DNA of 43,839 bases from the IMG/VR virus record IMGVR_UViG_2734482537_000014, one strand, 5' to 3'. Under the pieces are notes generated by a model, which was not told where the DNA came from, searched no databases, and saw only the letters and a program-made list of their open reading frames with translations. Of the stretch, positions 8,932 to 18,760 are shown in pieces. The translations under genes were made by a program, and so were the position numbers. The DNA is from a virus (taxonomy: Duplodnaviria > Heunggongvirae > Uroviricota > Caudoviricetes). The stretch's first letter is position 1. Each line of letters begins with the position of its first letter.

Positions 8932-9789
8932 ATGCTGTTTGTGCTTATTCTAAGCCACCGGGCAGCATCATACGGGGCAATTATGGCCGCATTACCATAC
9001 ATGCAACTGTACATAGCTGATTACCTGGCTGACACCATGCATTTGTCAGCAGAGGAGCATGGTGCGTATTTGTTGCTGATGTTCAATTACTGGCAAACAG
9101 GAAAGCCAATACCTAAAAACAGGCTGGCAAAAATTGCCCGTCTGACTAACGAGCGATGGGCTGATGTTGAACCATCCTTGCAGGAGTTTTTTTGCGATAA
9201 CGGCGAGGAATGGGTGCATCTTCGGATTGAGGAAGATCTGGCATCAGTCAGGGAAAAATTAACCAAAAAATCAGCCGCAGGAAAAGCATCTGTTCAGGCC
9301 AGAAGAAGCAGAAAGGAAGCAGATGTTCAAACAAAACAAGAGAGAAATTTAACAGGTGTTCAAACAGATGTTGAAGTGGTGTTTGAACATGATGTCAACA
9401 CAAAGGCAACTAATAAAGATACAGATAAAGATCTAAAAACAGATCCCCCCCTAAATCCCCCCCGGGGGAATCGAGGTGTCAAAAAGTTTGACCCTCTGGA
9501 TATTGCTTTGCCGAACTGGATTTCTGTCTCGCTTTGGCGTGAGTGGGTTGAATTTCGCCAGGCATTGCGAAAACCGATTCGAACGGAGCAGGGCGCTAAC
9601 GGGGCGATACGGGAGCTGGAAAAATTCCGCCAGCAGGGTTTTTCACCTGAGCAGGTGATTCGACACAGCATCGCCAATGAATACCAGGGCTTGTTCGCGC
9701 CGAAAGGTGTTCGACCTGAGACGTTACTCCGACAGGTTAACACCGTCTCGTTACCGGATAGTGCGATCCCGCCAGGCTTCAGGGGGTAA
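8932..9789 (+). CDS. ydaU: YdaU (DUF1376-type) replication-associated protein, O-like position, 285 aa
   Basis: ORF 8932..9789 plus; immediately upstream of the DnaC-like loader gene; contains an internal iteron-like repeat cluster (see next feature). Alternative start at 8983. Confidence 0.75.
   Translation: MLFVLILSHRAASYGAIMAALPYMQLYIADYLADTMHLSAEEHGAYLLLMFNYWQTGKPIPKNRLAKIARLTNERWADVEPSLQEFFCDNGEEWVHLRIEEDLASVREKLTKKSAAGKASVQARRSRKEADVQTKQERNLTGVQTDVEVVFEHDVNTKATNKDTDKDLKTDPPLNPPRGNRGVKKFDPLDIALPNWISVSLWREWVEFRQALRKPIRTEQGANGAIRELEKFRQQGFSPEQVIRHSIANEYQGLFAPKGVRPETLLRQVNTVSLPDSAIPPGFRG
9324..9468. other. Candidate replication origin inside ydaU (iterons, A-rich stretch, C7/G5 tract)
   Basis: TGTTCAAACA at 9324-9333 and 9357-9366; its reverse complement TGTTTGAACA at 9380-9389; related GATGTCAACA at 9391-9400; then an A-rich stretch (aaagatacagataaagatctaaaaacagat) and CCCCCCCtaaatCCCCCCCGGGGG at 9445-9468. 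Confidence 0.3.
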
Positions 9790-11758: not shown

Positions 11759-11896
11759 ACGTTACTAGATCAAAGAGCATTAGTTCATATGTAAATTGAC
11801 ATTTTTCTGGCACAGGGGAGAGCTAGCGTGGTTGTCCGCTTTGTGCCAATAGCGGACATTGCTGGCTCATGGTATGTTAGTTTAAGGAGGCAGGTT

Positions 11897-12919
11897 ATGC
11901 CCTGTATTTCGCTGTGGTATAATAGTTGCGCAATTGATACAAGGGAGCGTTACATCGTGAAAATTGTTTTCGAGGTTAATGGAAAGAAAGTTCCACTAAA
12001 ATCTTTAAAATACATAAGCAAAAAAGATCAACTCGAAGTAATGAAAAACTGGTTCTTTGAAAACTTTGAAGATCCGGCAAATGCTTGTCCGTATGAAAGT
12101 AGAGAAGGTGGCTATGCTTACATATATGGCGGGCCGTATGATGCGAGCGAAGAACTACAATCCATCTTCGGTCAATATGTTAAATCTGAGTATATTGAGG
12201 AATTAGTAGATGAATTACAAACACAATGTTTTGACTGGTCTGGAAACTCAAATAATATAGATGATTGGTACGATGATGATATCTACGACGCTGTAACGTC
12301 TTCCGGTAATCCGTATTTAAAATTCATTGATAATATCGATAAAATAAAAAAACTTGCAAAAGATAAAACTGAACAACAGCAAAAAAACCACTTGCTTAGT
12401 TTGCTCTACACGAATGTTATTACAGCTTTGGAAACGCTTTATGTTGAGCTATTCATTAATTCTATAGAGAAAGATGATGTCTACATAGCCAATTGTATAG
12501 AAAAAGGTAAGACTGAATTTAAAGTAAGCAAAGATATTGCTGCGTTGCCTTTCAAGGGTGAACCCATCGAGAAAATTAGGGGAGAGCTAATCAGGTCAAT
12601 CAAGGAACACTTGATCAGTGCAAGCTGGCATAGCACTAAAAAGGTAATCGACCGCTATGAAGCTACATTCGATATAAAAGTACAAAAAGACTGTCCGATA
12701 GAAGCTATTGAATTGGCAACCCTCAATCGAAATCACTTAGTGCATCGTGGTGGAAAGGATAAAGAAGGGAACCTCGTAGTGATTACAGACCAGGATCTTG
12801 AAACGCTGATTGAAAATGCATCGAACCTGGCAATTATGCTCTACAACAGTTTAAATGTAGCAACGAATAAAACCACCATTTTGCAACCAGATGACAAACC
12901 GTTCATTCATGAATTTTAA
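11897..12919 (+). CDS. Gene A of AT-rich accessory cassette: hypothetical protein, about 340 aa, with HEPN-like R-N-x3-H motif near C-terminus
   Basis: ORF 11828..12919 plus; ATG 11897 preceded by AGGAGG with 6-nt spacer (GTG 11957 is an alternative); codons 12728-12745 encode RNHLVH; visibly AT-richer than flanking phage genes; stop 15 nt before gene B. Confidence 0.6.
   Translation: MPCISLWYNSCAIDTRERYIVKIVFEVNGKKVPLKSLKYISKKDQLEVMKNWFFENFEDPANACPYESREGGYAYIYGGPYDASEELQSIFGQYVKSEYIEELVDELQTQCFDWSGNSNNIDDWYDDDIYDAVTSSGNPYLKFIDNIDKIKKLAKDKTEQQQKNHLLSLLYTNVITALETLYVELFINSIEKDDVYIANCIEKGKTEFKVSKDIAALPFKGEPIEKIRGELIRSIKEHLISASWHSTKKVIDRYEATFDIKVQKDCPIEAIELATLNRNHLVHRGGKDKEGNLVVITDQDLETLIENASNLAIMLYNSLNVATNKTTILQPDDKPFIHEF
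11915..11923 (+). promoter_or_regulatory. Extended -10 element TGgTATAAT (only meaningful if gene A starts at GTG 11957)
   Basis: TGGTATAAT read directly at 11915-11923, followed by AAGGGAG and GTG at 11957; an isolated consensus -35 TTGACA lies at 11796-11801 without a good -10. Confidence 0.25.
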
Positions 12920-12934
12920 TAGCGCAGGTCATAC

Positions 12935-13936
12935 ATGGATATTCGCACACGAAAGACAAAATTTTTAGAGTCGTTAGATTCAACTGAAGTGATACGCAAA
13001 GCAGTAAGTCTCGCTATAGATTGCATTATTGATAATCATAATAGTAATGAAGATACCCCCTTAGTTATTACCAGCTATGATGATCTCTGTAGAATCCAGG
13101 TGCTAAATTATGTACAGGAGTTTTGCGAAGCTGCATTCCCTGATATGGATGAATATTACTTTAGTCCTAACATACTTCGCATCAACGGCAAGACTAGTGA
13201 AGAAGCTTGTATTAACTTAATTAAACTCTTAAGAAGTACAAAAGGCATGCTATTCTGGTCCGATGCCCCATCGTGGTTCGCTAGCCTCCCCGACGGATTA
13301 TTCCATGTTGTTAACATTGATCAAAAAATCGTTACTCGCGGCCTTAATAAGAAAAACTCTAAGCCGACAATAATCAATAAAGATTACAGTGTAGATACAC
13401 TACTATCAGAGCTATTTTTGAATGGCGCACACATGGAGCAACCCAACGTACACAACGTTTCTGAGGGAAACATGAAGTTCTATGATGAATGCCATGCTGG
13501 ATTAATCAGACCAATACCCGCTCCAATAGGCGCGTCATACGATGAAGAGATCACAATTAATTCTCCAGATTGGCAAAAGCTCGCGTGTGTAGCTTTACGC
13601 CGCTATCAGTCGAAGGAATGTCATGACGGAATGCAATGGGATACAACCGATCATGGTTGGACTGATGTAATCGCGTATCCATTCGTCGAAGAAATACAAT
13701 CAATGGATAATAGTGGTTATCGACAATGTTTAGTTGGGCTGGTCACAATAAACAATTCAAATGCAAATTCTCCGTACCTATCTACCGTTTGGATACATCC
13801 ATTTTATCGCAGGAGAGGGTTATTAAGTAAGTTATGGCCAAAATTACAAGAGTTATATGGAAGTAACTTCGAAATTGAGCGACCTAATGAAAATATGAAA
13901 GCATTTCTGAAAAGTGCGAAACACGCAGATTACTAA
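12935..13936 (+). CDS. Gene B of AT-rich accessory cassette: hypothetical protein, 333 aa, C-terminal region weakly GNAT-like
   Basis: ORF 12935..13936 plus; C-terminal VWIHPFYRRRGLLSKLWPKLQEL (R-R-R-G at 13808-13819) resembles the GNAT CoA-binding motif A and NENMKAFLKSA resembles motif B; same AT-rich composition as gene A. Confidence 0.6.
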   Translation: MDIRTRKTKFLESLDSTEVIRKAVSLAIDCIIDNHNSNEDTPLVITSYDDLCRIQVLNYVQEFCEAAFPDMDEYYFSPNILRINGKTSEEACINLIKLLRSTKGMLFWSDAPSWFASLPDGLFHVVNIDQKIVTRGLNKKNSKPTIINKDYSVDTLLSELFLNGAHMEQPNVHNVSEGNMKFYDECHAGLIRPIPAPIGASYDEEITINSPDWQKLACVALRRYQSKECHDGMQWDTTDHGWTDVIAYPFVEEIQSMDNSGYRQCLVGLVTINNSNANSPYLSTVWIHPFYRRRGLLSKLWPKLQELYGSNFEIERPNENMKAFLKSAKHADY

Positions 13937-14119
13937 TTTATGAATCAGTCTGTGGAGTTAGGGTTGGTGTGAACAAGTAGGGTAAGAGCCTCAACGTGAT
14001 GCTATGCCGACCTGCTCCCTGAGAATTCACACAGAAGGCTGCTAGCAATGTCTGCAGATCGCTCAAAGCGGACTAAAATGTTGGCTTGTTTCTGACTTAG
14101 AGCATTTAAGGAAGTGCTG

Positions 14120-14556: not shown

Positions 14557-14895
14557 CTATTTTTTGGTGCTATAGACTTTTTCGCCCGAAAAGTCTGGAG
14601 CGACCCAAAAGTTAATATTAAACTGAGCATCATCGCTTAGTTCAACACGGTGCCAGTATTGTGGTGGGCTTGTTGCAAAAGCGCCAGCATTAATGACTAC
14701 TTTTATCTCCGGTTCAGTAGCATTCTCATCAGTAAAACCATAATATGTTACAGTGCCTTCCATTACGCACAACTGCCCAAAAACACCTGCTGCTGTATTA
14801 TGATGTGTTAATAACGCTGAAGGTACGTTCTCTTTTGTGAAGAACGGAGTTGAGCGTTTGATTACCCAATCTTTAGGAATTCTCTTGTGTGTCAT
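14557..14895 (-). CDS. DUF1971-type protein (YeaR / TehB N-terminal domain-like), 112 aa
   Basis: ORF 14557..14919 minus; ATG at 14893-14895 preceded by GGAGGAGG; pattern RSTPFFTKENVP...GVFGQLCVMEGTVTYYGFTDENATEPE...AGAFATSPPQYWHRVE...FNINFWVAP matches recalled E. coli YeaR. Confidence 0.6.
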   Translation of the reverse strand: MTHKRIPKDWVIKRSTPFFTKENVPSALLTHHNTAAGVFGQLCVMEGTVTYYGFTDENATEPEIKVVINAGAFATSPPQYWHRVELSDDAQFNINFWVAPDFSGEKVYSTKK

Positions 14896-15708
14896 AACCA
14901 CCTCCTCCAAAACATGCATTAAAAATGCATCTTTTGGAGGGTTATGTCAAGCTGTTATGAAACACATAATTGATATGTTGATTAGAGGAGAAGATAGAAT
15001 AAATATGGTTGTTTTTCGTATAACTATTTGTTTTACTTTTAGTTTATGCATTCTGTGTGTTAGGAATAAGTTATTAAAGTTTAATCAAAAAATCTCGATG
15101 TAGTCCACATAGATTACTGTTACTGAACCTTATTGTGTGTATTAGTTGTGTTCTGAAATTTCAGCTTAATTATTTATGATGTATTTTTTAACGATAAATA
15201 TTTTCCCAGGATACCTTTACTGTGTATATAAATAAATTATATACGCATAAATAATGTAAAGGCGTCCTTTTAGATATATCTTATCAAATGTTAATGACTT
15301 GAGTGGGAAATATGATTCCAGCAACTTATCATGTGGCTACTTTATAAAAATAATGCCCATATAAAACAACAAGCGAAAAGGATTACGGATAAAAAAGGAG
15401 CGAGATGTGCGAACTTGTTATTTTCCATGTTTAACCACCTTAAATAATTGATGATGACGGGATGATTGCATCTGTAATGCTTTTATTGAAATGTTATGAT
15501 AAAAAAGAACTTTTGCATAACATTAAAATGTAATTTATCTAATCGTTTTTAATAATAAGTGTCGTATTTCTATCCTTGTACCAGCTATTTGATATGTAGT
15601 GTTTGTTCATGCTATGTGGGGCTTTACACCATAGCCAGTTTATTTATACTTTATTCGTCAGCCTGAACAACTGGCATCTGCTGCGCTGCGCCATCGAGAG
15701 ATTGAGAA

Positions 15709-17247: not shown

Positions 17248-17562
17248 TCAGGAAAGCAGGGGAGAATGCTGCTAGTTGGGCAACTGGTCTTTCTGCTCCA
17301 AATTATAACAGAGACCAGTTATAGTTTCGGTGCTGTGTTTTTTTTACAATATTGTGATAACACATTGCTGGCGGGAGTTTTGATATTTCTTGGCAGGGGC
17401 TGATGATGCGTTATCCTGATGTCGTCAACTCATATAAAATGAGATGAGAGATCATTGCAGGGTGGTTTGTAATTCGCTGTTTAGCGGGACAATATGTTGT
17501 CTGATACAAGACACCCGACGCCTCAGATTACTATAATAAAGACGAAGCATCCTTTGTATTGA

Positions 17563-18610: not shown

Positions 18611-18760
18611 TATTTATTGTTTTGTAATAAACGGTTTCGGCTTAGGTTTGTTCTGACACAGCTACGGCACTGAGCTAAATTTAGCGGATAGTCAGCTCTG
18701 AGCCAGTGGCGGACGTAACAACTACTATTGCTGAGATTTTAATGGATTGAGGAGCAAGAA

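What the first reader, a model, noticed from the sequence alone, without database searches (positions are those of the whole stretch)
11760..13940. AT-rich two-gene cassette between replication module and nin/Q region: candidate undescribed defence or abortive-infection pair (HEPN-like + GNAT-like)
Two co-oriented ORFs 15 bp apart (about 340 aa and 333 aa) sit exactly where K-12 Rac, as I recall it, goes straight from ydaW to the rzpR/rzoR remnant. Composition drops sharply to an AT-rich codon style at 11.8 kb and recovers after about 15.7 kb, as expected for a horizontally acquired moron. Gene A carries R-N-H-L-V-H (codons 12728-12745), which fits the HEPN Rx4-6H RNase signature with a polar residue after the Arg. 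Gene B ends with VWIHPFYRRRGLLSKL...NENMKAFLKSA, which resembles GNAT motifs A and B. A HEPN RNase paired with a possible acetyltransferase is not a combination I can assign to any named system. Both motif matches are short and could be chance. The start of gene A is ambiguous (ATG 11897 with AGGAGG, or GTG 11957 behind an extended -10).
Basis: partly seen in the sequence, partly recalled or inferred. Interest (0 to 1): 0.85.

Follow-up and report, generated by a model that had tools for sequence, protein, structure and literature searches.

The report
Mobile HEPN plus acetyltransferase prophage cassette
A 2.2-kb swappable gene cassette in a Rac-like E. coli prophage encodes a predicted RNA-cutting "suicide" protein and a rare acetyltransferase; sister cassettes in the same slot carry proven anti-phage genes, so this is a well-supported but untested candidate for a new anti-phage module.

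Summary

The pair forms one discrete 2,240-nt block (11834-14073) with its own promoter. The same block occurs at 83-100% identity in unrelated genomic contexts. It is bounded by two 24-nt palindromic motifs, which also flank fun(Z) in phage P2 and at least 51 other cargo types. That cargo includes PD-T7-1, DarTG, AbiH and TIR proteins.

Both genes are under purifying selection and diverge together. However, each family mostly occurs alone elsewhere. Natural knock-outs of A or of B exist with the partner intact, so this is not a classical toxin-antitoxin pair.

Best reading: a fun(Z)-type mobile defence cassette in which A is an aRES-like abortive-infection RNase and B is a co-transcribed accessory enzyme of unknown target. 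Defence activity is inferred, not shown.

The parts
11834..14073 (+). Whole mobile cassette (2,240 nt): left motif, leader with promoter, gene A, gene B, 3' tail, right motif
   Evidence: blastn shows this block, and only this block, conserved at 83-98% in loci with unrelated flanks. GC is 0.37-0.38 against flanks of 0.43-0.66.
11834..11857 (+). Left boundary motif 'L': GTCCGCT-TTGTGCCAAT-AGCGGAC, a 24-nt palindromic hairpin
   Evidence: One match in the window against 0 expected. Present at the 5' edge of every A+B locus. 139 L/R hits in 1.76 Mb of loci against 0 in shuffles. DNA fold -7.4 kcal/mol, z -4.95. The same motif flanks P2 fun(Z).
11915..11923 (+). Extended -10 promoter element TGgTATAAT inside the cassette leader (inferred promoter of A-B)
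   Evidence: Read directly from the sequence. TGnTAyAAT is nearly invariant across cassette copies and is kept in the A-deletion derivatives. The generic scan did not list it because it has no -35 element.
11941..11947 (+). Shine-Dalgarno AAGGGAG, 9 nt before GTG 11957
   Evidence: conserved as AAGGGAG or AAGGAGG.
11957..12919 (+). Gene A, 320 aa: N-terminal HEPN/RES-NTD1 domain (about residues 1-115) plus C-terminal HEPN domain (about residues 135-310)
12032..12232 (+). Stretch of A matched by Pfam HEPN_RES_NTD1 (residues 26-92)
   Evidence: E 1.9e-4, 22.2 bits, below the gathering score of 27.4. The match holds at family level.
12431..12433 (+). Codon of invariant Glu159, the upstream acidic residue typical of HEPN sites
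   Evidence: Invariant column E159. Its role is as described in PMC3710099.
12728..12748 (+). HEPN catalytic motif R258-N-H-L-V-H263-R264
   Evidence: R258, H263 and R264 are invariant in 58 sequences.
12935..13936 (+). Gene B, 333 aa: family-specific N-terminal domain plus C-terminal GNAT-fold acetyltransferase domain
13724..13867 (+). Stretch of B matched by Pfam Acetyltransf_1 (residues 264-311; beta4-alpha3 'motif A', ...VWIHPFYRRRGLLSKLW...)
   Evidence: E 9e-4, 19.9 bits against a gathering score of 20.7. R292 is invariant.
14050..14073 (+). Right boundary motif 'R': GTCTGCA-GATCGCTCAA-AGCGGAC, a degenerate copy of consensus GTCCGCTYYTCGCTCAnAGCGGAC
   Evidence: 2 mismatches. It lies at the 3' edge of the block in all A+B loci. 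This copy folds weakly, -3.1 kcal/mol.

Best explanation
Window 11834-14073 is a fun(Z)-type mobile moron cassette. This is a promoter-bearing gene block bounded by two related 24-nt palindromic motifs, and it is exchanged between P2-like phages, lambdoid/Rac-like prophages and chromosomal islands of Enterobacterales.

Its cargo most likely excludes superinfecting phages. Gene A is a stand-alone abortive-infection protein built like aRES. It has the same N-terminal (presumed sensing or regulatory) domain, but a HEPN RNase replaces the RES NADase as effector. The proposed mechanism is inferred: on infection, the N-terminal domain releases the HEPN domain. A HEPN dimer then forms a metal-independent RNase site from R258/H263 with E159, cuts cellular and phage RNA, and arrests growth.

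Gene B is co-transcribed from the same extended -10 promoter. It is an acyl-CoA-dependent acetyltransferase with a strongly conserved acceptor-side surface and a private N-terminal domain. It acts as an accessory or second module whose target is unknown. It is not an obligate antitoxin of A.

Shown: the folds, the invariant catalytic residues, the mobility and boundaries of the block, co-divergence under purifying selection, and the company of proven defence genes in sister cassettes. Inferred: the anti-phage phenotype, RNA as substrate, the trigger, and any A-B cross-talk.
For: A is a HEPN protein:
- PF18735 is found in 31/58 homologues, best E 7e-11.
- E159, R258, H263 and R264 are invariant.

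A's N-terminal domain:
- PF18870 is found in 55/58 homologues.
- It was described as fused alternatively to HEPN or RES in Abi-like architectures (PMC3710099).
- RES+PF18870 proteins (aRES) are stand-alone defence proteins that cause growth arrest (bioRxiv 2026.01.28.702374).

B is a GNAT.

The pair is one mobile unit:
- The same 2.24-kb block sits in unrelated flanks.
- L and R motifs are at its edges in every copy.
- The promoter and Shine-Dalgarno sequence are conserved.
- dS is similar for A and B and dN/dS is below 0.45 for both.

Defence context:
- 97 L..R segments in viral contigs fall into 51 cargo types.
- Cargo matches PD-T7-1, PD-T7-5, ThsB/TIR, DarT+DarG, AbiH, PDC-S07/S31/S33/S39/S66 and type IV REase.
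- The same motifs flank P2 fun(Z), a T5-exclusion gene (PMC8987985).
- Chromosomal copies of the A+B block have large ATPase- and helicase-like ORFs beside them. I did not run these neighbours against any family library, so their defence identity is a reading of N-terminal sequences only.
- The slot after the DUF977 gene holds other cargo in other E. coli. 41 of 97 cassettes lie in that slot.

Not a toxin-antitoxin pair:
- Strain SF-173 has B split by IS1 while the A protein is identical.
- Strain AHB12 has A truncated and B intact.
Against: - No phenotype is available.
- PADLOC 2.0 has no model hit for A or B.
- The window's own A and B score below the Pfam gathering thresholds (22.2 against 27.4, and 19.9 against 20.7). 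The assignments rest on family-level hits and predicted folds.
- L/R cassettes also carry non-defence cargo (MFS, SDR, alkyl sulfatase, LysR), so membership of the cassette family does not prove defence.
- The GNAT 'P-loop' Gly is not invariant in the B family (RRKRKL and RGERLL variants), so catalytic competence is not certain.
- No trigger is known, and no direct evidence links B to A's activity.
Confidence: 0.6

Rival explanations
1. Enzyme-antitoxin (type VII-like) pair. B acetylates A, or A's substrate, and keeps the HEPN RNase silent. Infection lowers B activity or acetyl-CoA and unleashes A. This would parallel MntA AMPylating HepT.
For: - The operon layout has a fixed 15-nt gap, and the genes co-diverge.
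- Loss of A with B kept happened several times independently: L097/L146, L147, AHB12, and the DnaC-B fusion in L151. Only one clear loss of B with A kept was seen.
- B-family genes also lie next to two other HEPN-type or HEPN-associated genes. One is an Abi_2 protein with RNRVAHH in Marinomonas. The other is an AAA_13 PrrC/RloC-type ATPase inside one L/R cassette in L115.
- B's closest folds include protein lysine acetyltransferases: ATAT, HAT1, ESCO1 and MYST.
Against: - SF-173 carries an IS1-split B with an unchanged A protein and is viable.
- A-family genes are solo in nearly all of the genome loci inspected.
- aRES, which has the same N-terminal domain, needs no partner.
- Most distant B homologues have no recognisable HEPN neighbour.
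- HEPN genes are common in defence islands, so chance adjacency is plausible.
Confidence: 0.17
2. Two unrelated single-gene modules that merely became neighbours, for example by loss of an R-L junction between two cassettes. A is a stand-alone Abi protein. B does something unrelated, such as a second defence, xenobiotic or antibiotic acetylation, or metabolite modification.
For: - Both families are mostly solo elsewhere.
- Either gene can be lost.
- Cassette arrays with R-11..19 nt-L junctions exist, so fusion by junction loss is easy to imagine.
- L/R cargo includes metabolic genes.
- Structural neighbours of B include aminoglycoside and polyamine acetyltransferases.
Against: - No junction remnant lies between A and B. 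There are only 15 nt carrying a ribosome-binding site.
- The pair stays together with the same spacing from 100% down to 83%/78% identity in many contexts.
- There is a single conserved promoter upstream of A.
- The A-deletion derivatives reuse that promoter for B.
Confidence: 0.15
3. Not a host-protective defence. The cassette would be a prophage counter-defence or lysogenic-conversion module. For example, B would acetylate and inactivate a host immune component or signalling molecule, and A would degrade host or competitor RNA during the prophage's own lytic cycle.
For: - The cassette is located in the early-right operon region of a prophage, between the replication and nin genes.
- The acceptor-side residues of B are very conserved. 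This suits a conserved host molecule better than a fast-evolving phage protein.
Against: - The cassette has its own promoter, and it is equally found outside prophages, next to chromosomal genes and next to large ATPase- and helicase-like ORFs.
- Sister cassettes carry bona fide defence systems.
- The aRES homology points to host-protective abortive infection.
Confidence: 0.08

Closest known systems
aRES (antiphage RES-domain protein; Osterman et al., bioRxiv 2026.01.28.702374)
   Same: - Single-chain protein with the PF18870 (HEPN/RES-NTD1) N-terminal domain followed by a toxic effector domain.
- Found in defence islands.
- Acts alone and causes growth arrest.
   Different: - The effector here is a HEPN RNase, not a RES NAD+ phosphorylase.
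- Here it is followed by a co-transcribed GNAT gene.
- Defence has not been tested.
HEPN/RES-NTD1 + HEPN architecture predicted by Anantharaman et al. 2013 (PMC3710099)
   Same: The same two-domain layout. It was explicitly called similar to Abi proteins, with the N-terminal domain shared between HEPN and RES effectors.
   Different: - That paper places the fused HEPN in the MAE_18760/MAE_28990 group. Pfam here assigns RiboL-PSP-HEPN.
- No GNAT partner was described.
- The earlier work is purely computational.
HepT/MntA (HEPN/MNT) type VII toxin-antitoxin
   Same: - The neighbouring gene encodes a group-transfer enzyme.
   Different: - The partner is a GNAT, not an MNT nucleotidyltransferase.
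- A carries an extra N-terminal domain.
- Natural loss of B with A intact argues against antitoxin dependence.
AbiD/AbiF (Abi_2) and other single-protein HEPN Abi systems
   Same: - N-terminal domain plus C-terminal HEPN, acting by abortive infection.
- RiboL-PSP-HEPN is described as distantly related to AbiD/F.
   Different: No Abi_2 Pfam hit and no PADLOC AbiD/F hit for A.
Phage P2 fun(Z) moron flanked by inverted repeats (Nilsson et al. 2004, as cited in PMC8987985)
   Same: The same L and R 24-nt motifs flank fun(Z) in P2 (L 15335-15358, R 17432-17455). They also flank cargo in the Z/fun hotspot of P2-like phage 899. The cargo there is a superinfection-exclusion gene.
   Different: - The cargo differs.
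- The host element here is a Rac-like lambdoid prophage, in the slot after the DUF977 gene.
- I could not read the 2004 paper, so the identity of 'their' repeats with L/R is inferred from position.
Integron gene cassettes (including defence cassettes of chromosomal and mobile integrons)
   Same: - Short promoter-bearing or promoter-less cargo units of 1-3 genes.
- Arrays with conserved imperfect-palindrome junctions of about 60-67 nt.
- Cargo rich in defence genes.
   Different: - The junction lacks RYYYAAC/GTTRRRY core sites.
- Each cassette carries one motif at each end.
- Cargo lies in either orientation.
- No intI was seen.
- The recombination mechanism is unknown.
GNAT toxins of type II TA systems (TacT, AtaT, KacT, ItaT)
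   Same: GNAT fold on mobile elements.
   Different: - Those proteins are about 170 aa with an RHH antitoxin gene upstream and are toxic alone.
- B is 333 aa with a private N-terminal domain and no such antitoxin, and it is tolerated alone.

Membership tests
HEPN superfamily | Rx4-6H motif with a polar residue after the Arg | tested here: met
   R258-N-H-L-V-H263. R258 and H263 (plus R264) are invariant in 58 sequences.
HEPN superfamily | All-alpha four-helix up-down bundle fold | tested here: met
   [not shown]
HEPN superfamily | Conserved acidic residue upstream of the motif | tested here: met
   E159 is invariant. The feature is described in PMC3710099.
HEPN superfamily | Metal-independent endoribonuclease activity | not testable with these tools
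   Needs biochemistry.
Pfam HEPN_RiboL-PSP (PF18735) | Score above the gathering threshold | tested here: inconclusive
   The window protein gives no hit at E<=1. 31 of 58 homologues hit, best E 7.1e-11.
aRES defence system | PF18870 N-terminal domain | tested here: met
   55 of 58 homologues hit. The window protein scores E 1.9e-4 and 22.2 bits, below the gathering score of 27.4.
aRES defence system | RES NAD+ phosphorylase effector domain | tested here: not met
   No RES hit. The C-terminal domain is HEPN. A is therefore not an aRES member, only built like one.
HepT/MntA type VII TA | Adjacent MNT nucleotidyltransferase antitoxin | tested here: not met
   The neighbour is a GNAT. No MNT domain was found in the flanking genes I scanned.
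HepT/MntA type VII TA | The toxin cannot be kept without its partner | tested here: not met
   SF-173 has B interrupted by IS1 while A is identical to WP_014639476.1.
GNAT superfamily (gene B) | GNAT alpha/beta fold | tested here: met
   [not shown]
GNAT superfamily (gene B) | Pfam Acetyltransf_1 above the gathering score | tested here: inconclusive
   The window protein scores 19.9 against 20.7 bits. 26 of 45 homologues hit, best E 6e-6.
GNAT superfamily (gene B) | Motif A Q/R-x-x-G-x-G/A pyrophosphate loop | tested here: inconclusive
   The window has R-R-R-G-L-L. R292 is invariant, but the Gly is replaced in several homologues (RRKRKL, RGERLL).
GNAT toxin / RHH antitoxin TA (TacT, AtaT) | About 170-aa GNAT with an upstream RHH antitoxin, toxic alone | tested here: not met
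   B is 333 aa with an extra domain. B is kept alone in A-deleted cassettes.
P2 fun(Z)-type inverted-repeat-flanked cassette | Cargo bounded by the L motif on one side and the R motif on the other | tested here: met
   L at 11834-11857 and R at 14050-14073. The same motifs flank P2 fun(Z). The conserved block ends at these motifs.
P2 fun(Z)-type inverted-repeat-flanked cassette | The same cargo in different genomic sites, and different cargo in the same site | tested here: met
   (the same block in unrelated flanks). (L155: a different cargo between L and R in the same Rac slot).
Integron cassette | attC with RYYYAAC / GTTRRRY core sites and an intI-linked array | tested here: not met
   34 junction sequences inspected and no such cores seen. 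No Rfam hit. A search for intI was not done systematically.
Known defence systems in PADLOC-DB 2.0 | HMM hit to any system protein | tested here: not met
   A gives only noise (E about 0.01-0.02). B gives none.

The most novel reading that the evidence does not exclude
The B-type GNAT would be a dedicated partner of HEPN-class RNases. It would be an acetyl-CoA-dependent switch that sets or licenses RNase activity, for instance by acetylating the RNase or its RNA/tRNA target. It would have been recruited independently to three different HEPN architectures: NTD1-HEPN in Enterobacterales, an Abi_2 protein in Marinomonas, and a PrrC/RloC-type AAA_13 protein in a marine cassette. That would be a new, acetylation-based mode of controlling an abortive-infection nuclease. 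In addition, the L/R-bounded cassettes that carry it would be moved by a still unidentified site-specific mechanism shared by P2-like phages, lambdoid prophages and chromosomes.
Probability: 0.15. Interest if true: 0.8.

Novelty: new variant of a known kind. Interest (0 to 1): 0.55.

Why it matters
Three consequences follow if the reading is right.

1. Gene A would show that the aRES sensor domain is a portable front end that can drive an RNase instead of an NADase. The same trigger could then be studied with two read-outs. It would also give phage inhibitors of aRES a second target class.

2. A GNAT co-transcribed with a HEPN effector has no described counterpart. Working out its target would either add acetylation to the known ways of regulating immune nucleases, or reveal a second effector.

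3. The cassette frame is a practical discovery handle. The L and R motifs delimit cargo precisely. In a single capped scan they returned 51 cargo types. Of the nine most frequent types tested, five match known or candidate defence proteins. The unmatched cargo is therefore an enriched list of candidate anti-phage genes in E. coli, Salmonella, Klebsiella, Serratia and their prophages.

The cassette is present in about 4% of complete E. coli genomes, including the ExPEC/APEC strains S88, IHE3034 and APEC O1. This is relevant to phage therapy host range.

Tried and rejected
- ATG 11897 as the start of A. Rejected: homologues start at the GTG position, the ATG and its Shine-Dalgarno sequence are not conserved, and the frame is closed upstream in L090/L092/L096/L102.
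- Obligate A-B co-occurrence. Rejected: tblastn of B on 80 A-family genome loci finds B only in the closest three. A is absent from all B loci at 39-56% identity.
- 'B-only' loci at 86% identity as ancestral single-gene cassettes. Rejected: they keep the leader and the last 40-65 nt of A, so they are internal deletions.
- Classical toxin-antitoxin dependence. Rejected: natural disruptions exist in both directions.
- Sequence search of the A profile against PDB chains. Only noise was found, so fold search was needed.
- hhalign of A's HEPN profile against single neighbours of distant B genes. Uninformative: even the Pfam-confirmed Abi_2 neighbour scores nothing.
- Rfam search for the leader, the motifs and the junctions. 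Nothing relevant.
- Full-text searches for the RefSeq accessions, the motif and junction sequences, and a HEPN+GNAT system. No hits.
- Integron attC identity of the junctions. Not supported on inspection.
- The generic promoter/terminator scan found no more sites than in shuffles and missed the extended -10.
- The afdb50 fold library was unavailable, so B's N-terminal domain remains without a structural match.
- The Nilsson et al. 2004 paper and the 2016 P2 review could not be read.
Full report
**What is in the sequence.** The window is a Rac-like prophage integrated next to ttcA in E. coli. It is 100% identical over the finding to strain FORC_081, where both genes are annotated 'hypothetical protein'. 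Two same-strand ORFs are present. Gene A ends at 12919 and gene B runs 12935-13936, leaving 15 nt between them. GC falls from about 0.51 to 0.34-0.41 over the two genes. It stays low (down to 0.27) until about 15.6 kb and then returns to about 0.50. However, K-12 has lost the whole nin/Q/lysis region there, so it is not an 'empty site'.

**Start of gene A.** All 57 aligned homologues begin at the position of GTG 11957 (M-K-I/V-V-F...), not at ATG 11897. In an alignment of the leader from 14 cassette copies, ATG 11897 and its AAGGAGG are not conserved. By contrast, an extended -10 (TGnTAyAAT, 11915-11923), AAGGGAG (11941-11947) and the GTG (ATG in L102) are conserved. In several copies the upstream frame is closed. 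Gene A is therefore 320 aa, as RefSeq also calls it.

**Gene A is a two-domain HEPN protein.**
- The window protein gives only a sub-threshold hit to HEPN_RES_NTD1 (PF18870; E 1.9e-4). Across 58 family members, 55 hit PF18870 and 31 hit HEPN_RiboL-PSP (PF18735; best E 7e-11).
- E159, W224, H225, R258, H263 and R264 are invariant down to 25% identity.
- The architecture 'HEPN/RES-NTD1 + HEPN' was described computationally in 2013 as resembling Abi proteins. The same N-terminal domain is alternatively fused to RES (PMC3710099).
- Proteins with RES plus PF18870 have since been shown to be a stand-alone anti-phage system, aRES, that depletes NAD+ and arrests growth (bioRxiv 2026.01.28.702374).
- Gene A is thus an effector-swapped relative of aRES. 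It is not a member, because the RES domain is absent. PADLOC-DB 2.0 has no model for it.

**Gene B is a GNAT-fold protein with a private N-terminal domain.**
- Foldseek ranks HAT1, ESCO1, MYST and aminoglycoside acetyltransferases first.
- 26 of 45 homologues hit Pfam Acetyltransf_1. The window protein scores 19.9 bits against a threshold of 20.7.
R292, P317, M321 and F324 are invariant, but the motif-A glycine is not.
- The first 175 residues match only B-family proteins: 20 clusters among 1.84 billion representatives. The family is small and confined to Gammaproteobacteria.

**Are A and B a pair?**

Against obligate pairing:
- The A family is found in many phyla (192 confirmed genome loci). 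B follows A only in the three closest loci. Neighbours of more distant A genes are heterogeneous.
- All B genes at 39-56% identity lack A.
- Natural knock-outs exist in both directions. E. coli SF-173 has B split by IS1A with an unchanged A protein. Strain AHB12 has lost the 5' half of A next to an IS1, with B intact.

For a functional unit:
- Wherever B is at least about 78% identical, A (83-100%) sits upstream with the same spacing. This holds in loci whose flanks share nothing with the window.
- Synonymous divergence is similar for the two genes (for example 0.65 and 0.63 in L102). Both are under purifying selection, with dN/dS 0.12-0.21 for A and 0.20-0.43 for B.
- The three 'B-only' loci at 86% identity keep the cassette leader and the last 40-65 nt of A. 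They are internal deletions that place B directly behind the shared promoter.
- Distant B genes twice lie beside other HEPN-type genes. One is a Pfam-significant Abi_2 protein with RNRVAHH in Marinomonas, divergent and about 320 nt away. The other is an AAA_13 (PrrC/RloC-type) ATPase directly downstream in a marine contig. Several other B loci show no such neighbour.

I conclude that the two genes travel and are expressed together, but that neither is an addiction partner of the other. Functional coupling remains possible but unproven.

**The pair is one discrete mobile cassette.**
- blastn against loci with unrelated flanks shows a conserved block corresponding to window 11834-14073/4. Its GC is 0.37-0.38 inside flanks of 0.43-0.66.
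- The block starts with a 24-nt palindromic motif, L (GTCCGCTTTGTGCCAATAGCGGAC, 11834-11857). It ends with a related motif, R (consensus GTCCGCTYYTCGCTCAnAGCGGAC; the window copy at 14050-14073 has 2 mismatches).
- R is roughly the reverse complement of L. That is my own base-by-base reading, about 20 of 24 positions.
- With up to 4 mismatches there are 139 L/R hits in 1.76 Mb of fetched loci and none in shuffles. Every A+B locus has L at the 5' edge and R at the 3' edge.
- Other cargo lies between the same motifs. In E. coli EC20, the same Rac slot holds TetR + adenosine deaminase + NTP pyrophosphatase + SIR2 between L and R.
- Cassettes form arrays whose junctions are mostly a conserved 66-nt composite: R, an 18-nt spacer (CTTCAGCTCAGTnAnnTn), then L. 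34 junction sequences were listed, several of them the two strands of one site, and most have an 18-nt spacer.

**Cargo of the cassette family.**
It yielded 97 L..R segments of 0.5-5.4 kb in 51 cargo types, each with 1-4 predicted ORFs in either orientation. 41 of the 97 lie directly after a DUF977 gene, that is, in the slot seen in the window.
- Cargo proteins match PD-T7-1, PD-T7-5, ThsB/TIR, DarT and DarG, AbiH, several PDC candidates, a pAgo-associated nuclease and a type IV restriction enzyme. They also match some metabolic families.
- Chromosomal copies of the A+B block have neighbours that look, from their N-terminal sequences alone, like OLD-type ATPase + UvrD-type helicase pairs (Gabija-like), a dGTPase and a methylase. 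I did not run these against any family library.
- Other occupants of the slot in E. coli include QueH + hokD, an alpha/beta hydrolase + hokD, and two unknown genes + hok.

**The cassette type is not new.** The junction also occurs in P2-like phages. In phage 899 it lies between two cargo genes in the Z/fun hotspot, between the tail-fibre assembly and sheath genes. In P2 itself, L (15335-15358) and R (17432-17455) flank fun(Z), the T5-exclusion gene. [quoted passage not shown] 2004 (PMC8987985). I could not read the 2004 paper. The two recent papers on P2/P4 defence hotspots do not mention such repeats. Neither Rfam nor full-text searches for the sequences returned anything. How the cassettes move, whether by a site-specific enzyme or by short-homology recombination at the motifs, is unknown.

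**Mechanism proposed.** The cassette is a fun(Z)-type superinfection-exclusion module. A is an auto-inhibited, aRES-like abortive-infection RNase whose N-terminal domain responds to infection and frees a dimeric HEPN site (R258/H263/E159). B is co-expressed and modifies an unknown, conserved acceptor. The folds, the invariant residues, the mobility and the neighbourhood are shown. The phenotype, the substrate, the trigger and B's role are inferred. The main rivals are a type VII-like acetylation switch (0.17), two unrelated modules fused by chance (0.15), and a prophage counter-defence or conversion function (0.08).

**Verdict.** This is a new variant of a known kind: an aRES/Abi-like HEPN protein with an undescribed GNAT companion, carried on a known but little-used cassette frame. 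Interest is moderate (0.55). A candidate HEPN defence gene is ordinary in itself. The GNAT partner and the cassette handle for finding further defence genes give it value.

Noticed in passing
window 11834-11857 and 14050-14073; also L155:5507-5530 and 8996-9019; L285 (phage P2):15335-15358 and 17432-17455: Two related 24-nt palindromic motifs (L and R) bound interchangeable cargo cassettes. In arrays they form conserved junctions, most of them 66 nt (R + 18-nt spacer + L). At least 51 cargo types were found in viral contigs, many matching known defence proteins. The same motifs flank fun(Z) in P2. The mobilising mechanism is unknown.
   Followed up: yes
window 18691-18714: A third L-like motif (GTCAGCTCTGAGCCAGTGGCGGAC, 3 mismatches) lies between two small TolA-like genes upstream of the lysis genes. 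No matching R motif was found. It may mark another cassette slot.
   Followed up: no
window 14557-14919 (minus strand) and 14920-15700: A DUF1971 / TehB-N-terminal-like gene is followed by an ORF-poor stretch with GC 0.27-0.31. The stretch has no Rfam match at E<=1. In other prophages this position holds hokD. The DUF1971 gene stays in place when the upstream cassette is swapped (L155).
   Followed up: partly
L155:5507-9019 (E. coli EC20, NZ_CP084900.1): The same Rac slot holds an L/R-bounded cassette with TetR + adenosine deaminase + non-canonical NTP pyrophosphatase + SIR2. This looks like a nucleotide-centred defence candidate.
   Followed up: no
L151:9644-10606 (IMG/VR contig); proteins P0147/P0148: A 320-aa chimeric ORF joins the N-terminus of the DnaC-like replication protein to residues 133-333 of B. 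It results from a deletion that removed DUF1627, DUF977, gene A and the 5' part of B.
   Followed up: partly
L115:5881-9411; L281:4038-6005: Distant B homologues lie next to other HEPN-class or HEPN-associated genes. One is a 754-aa AAA_13 (PrrC/RloC-type) ATPase inside one L/R-bounded cassette. The other is an Abi_2 protein with RNRVAHH in Marinomonas epiphytica.
   Followed up: partly
L278 (E. coli MB56, NZ_CP073936.1):1730-5092: Two ISSen4 copies bracket gene A. One lies in the cassette leader and one lies between A and B. This is a composite-transposon-like arrangement that separates B from the promoter.
   Followed up: no
NZ_CP069974.1 (136-kb plasmid), NZ_JBSWAN010000003.1 (89 kb): Three of the roughly 210 E. 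coli copies of the cassette are on plasmids (possibly phage-plasmids) rather than in chromosomal prophages.
   Followed up: no
L002 (JAIHTM010000277.1, MAG labelled Collinsella sp.): A 3.3-kb contig of an actinobacterial MAG is 100% identical to the E. coli cassette and its DUF977 flank. This is most likely a binning contaminant.
   Followed up: no
L171:143-341, L194:5844-6037, L275:4392-4575: Sub-threshold Rfam hits to IS009 (49-57 bits against a gathering score of 117) recur in three contigs that carry L/R cassette arrays. Their meaning is unknown.
   Followed up: no
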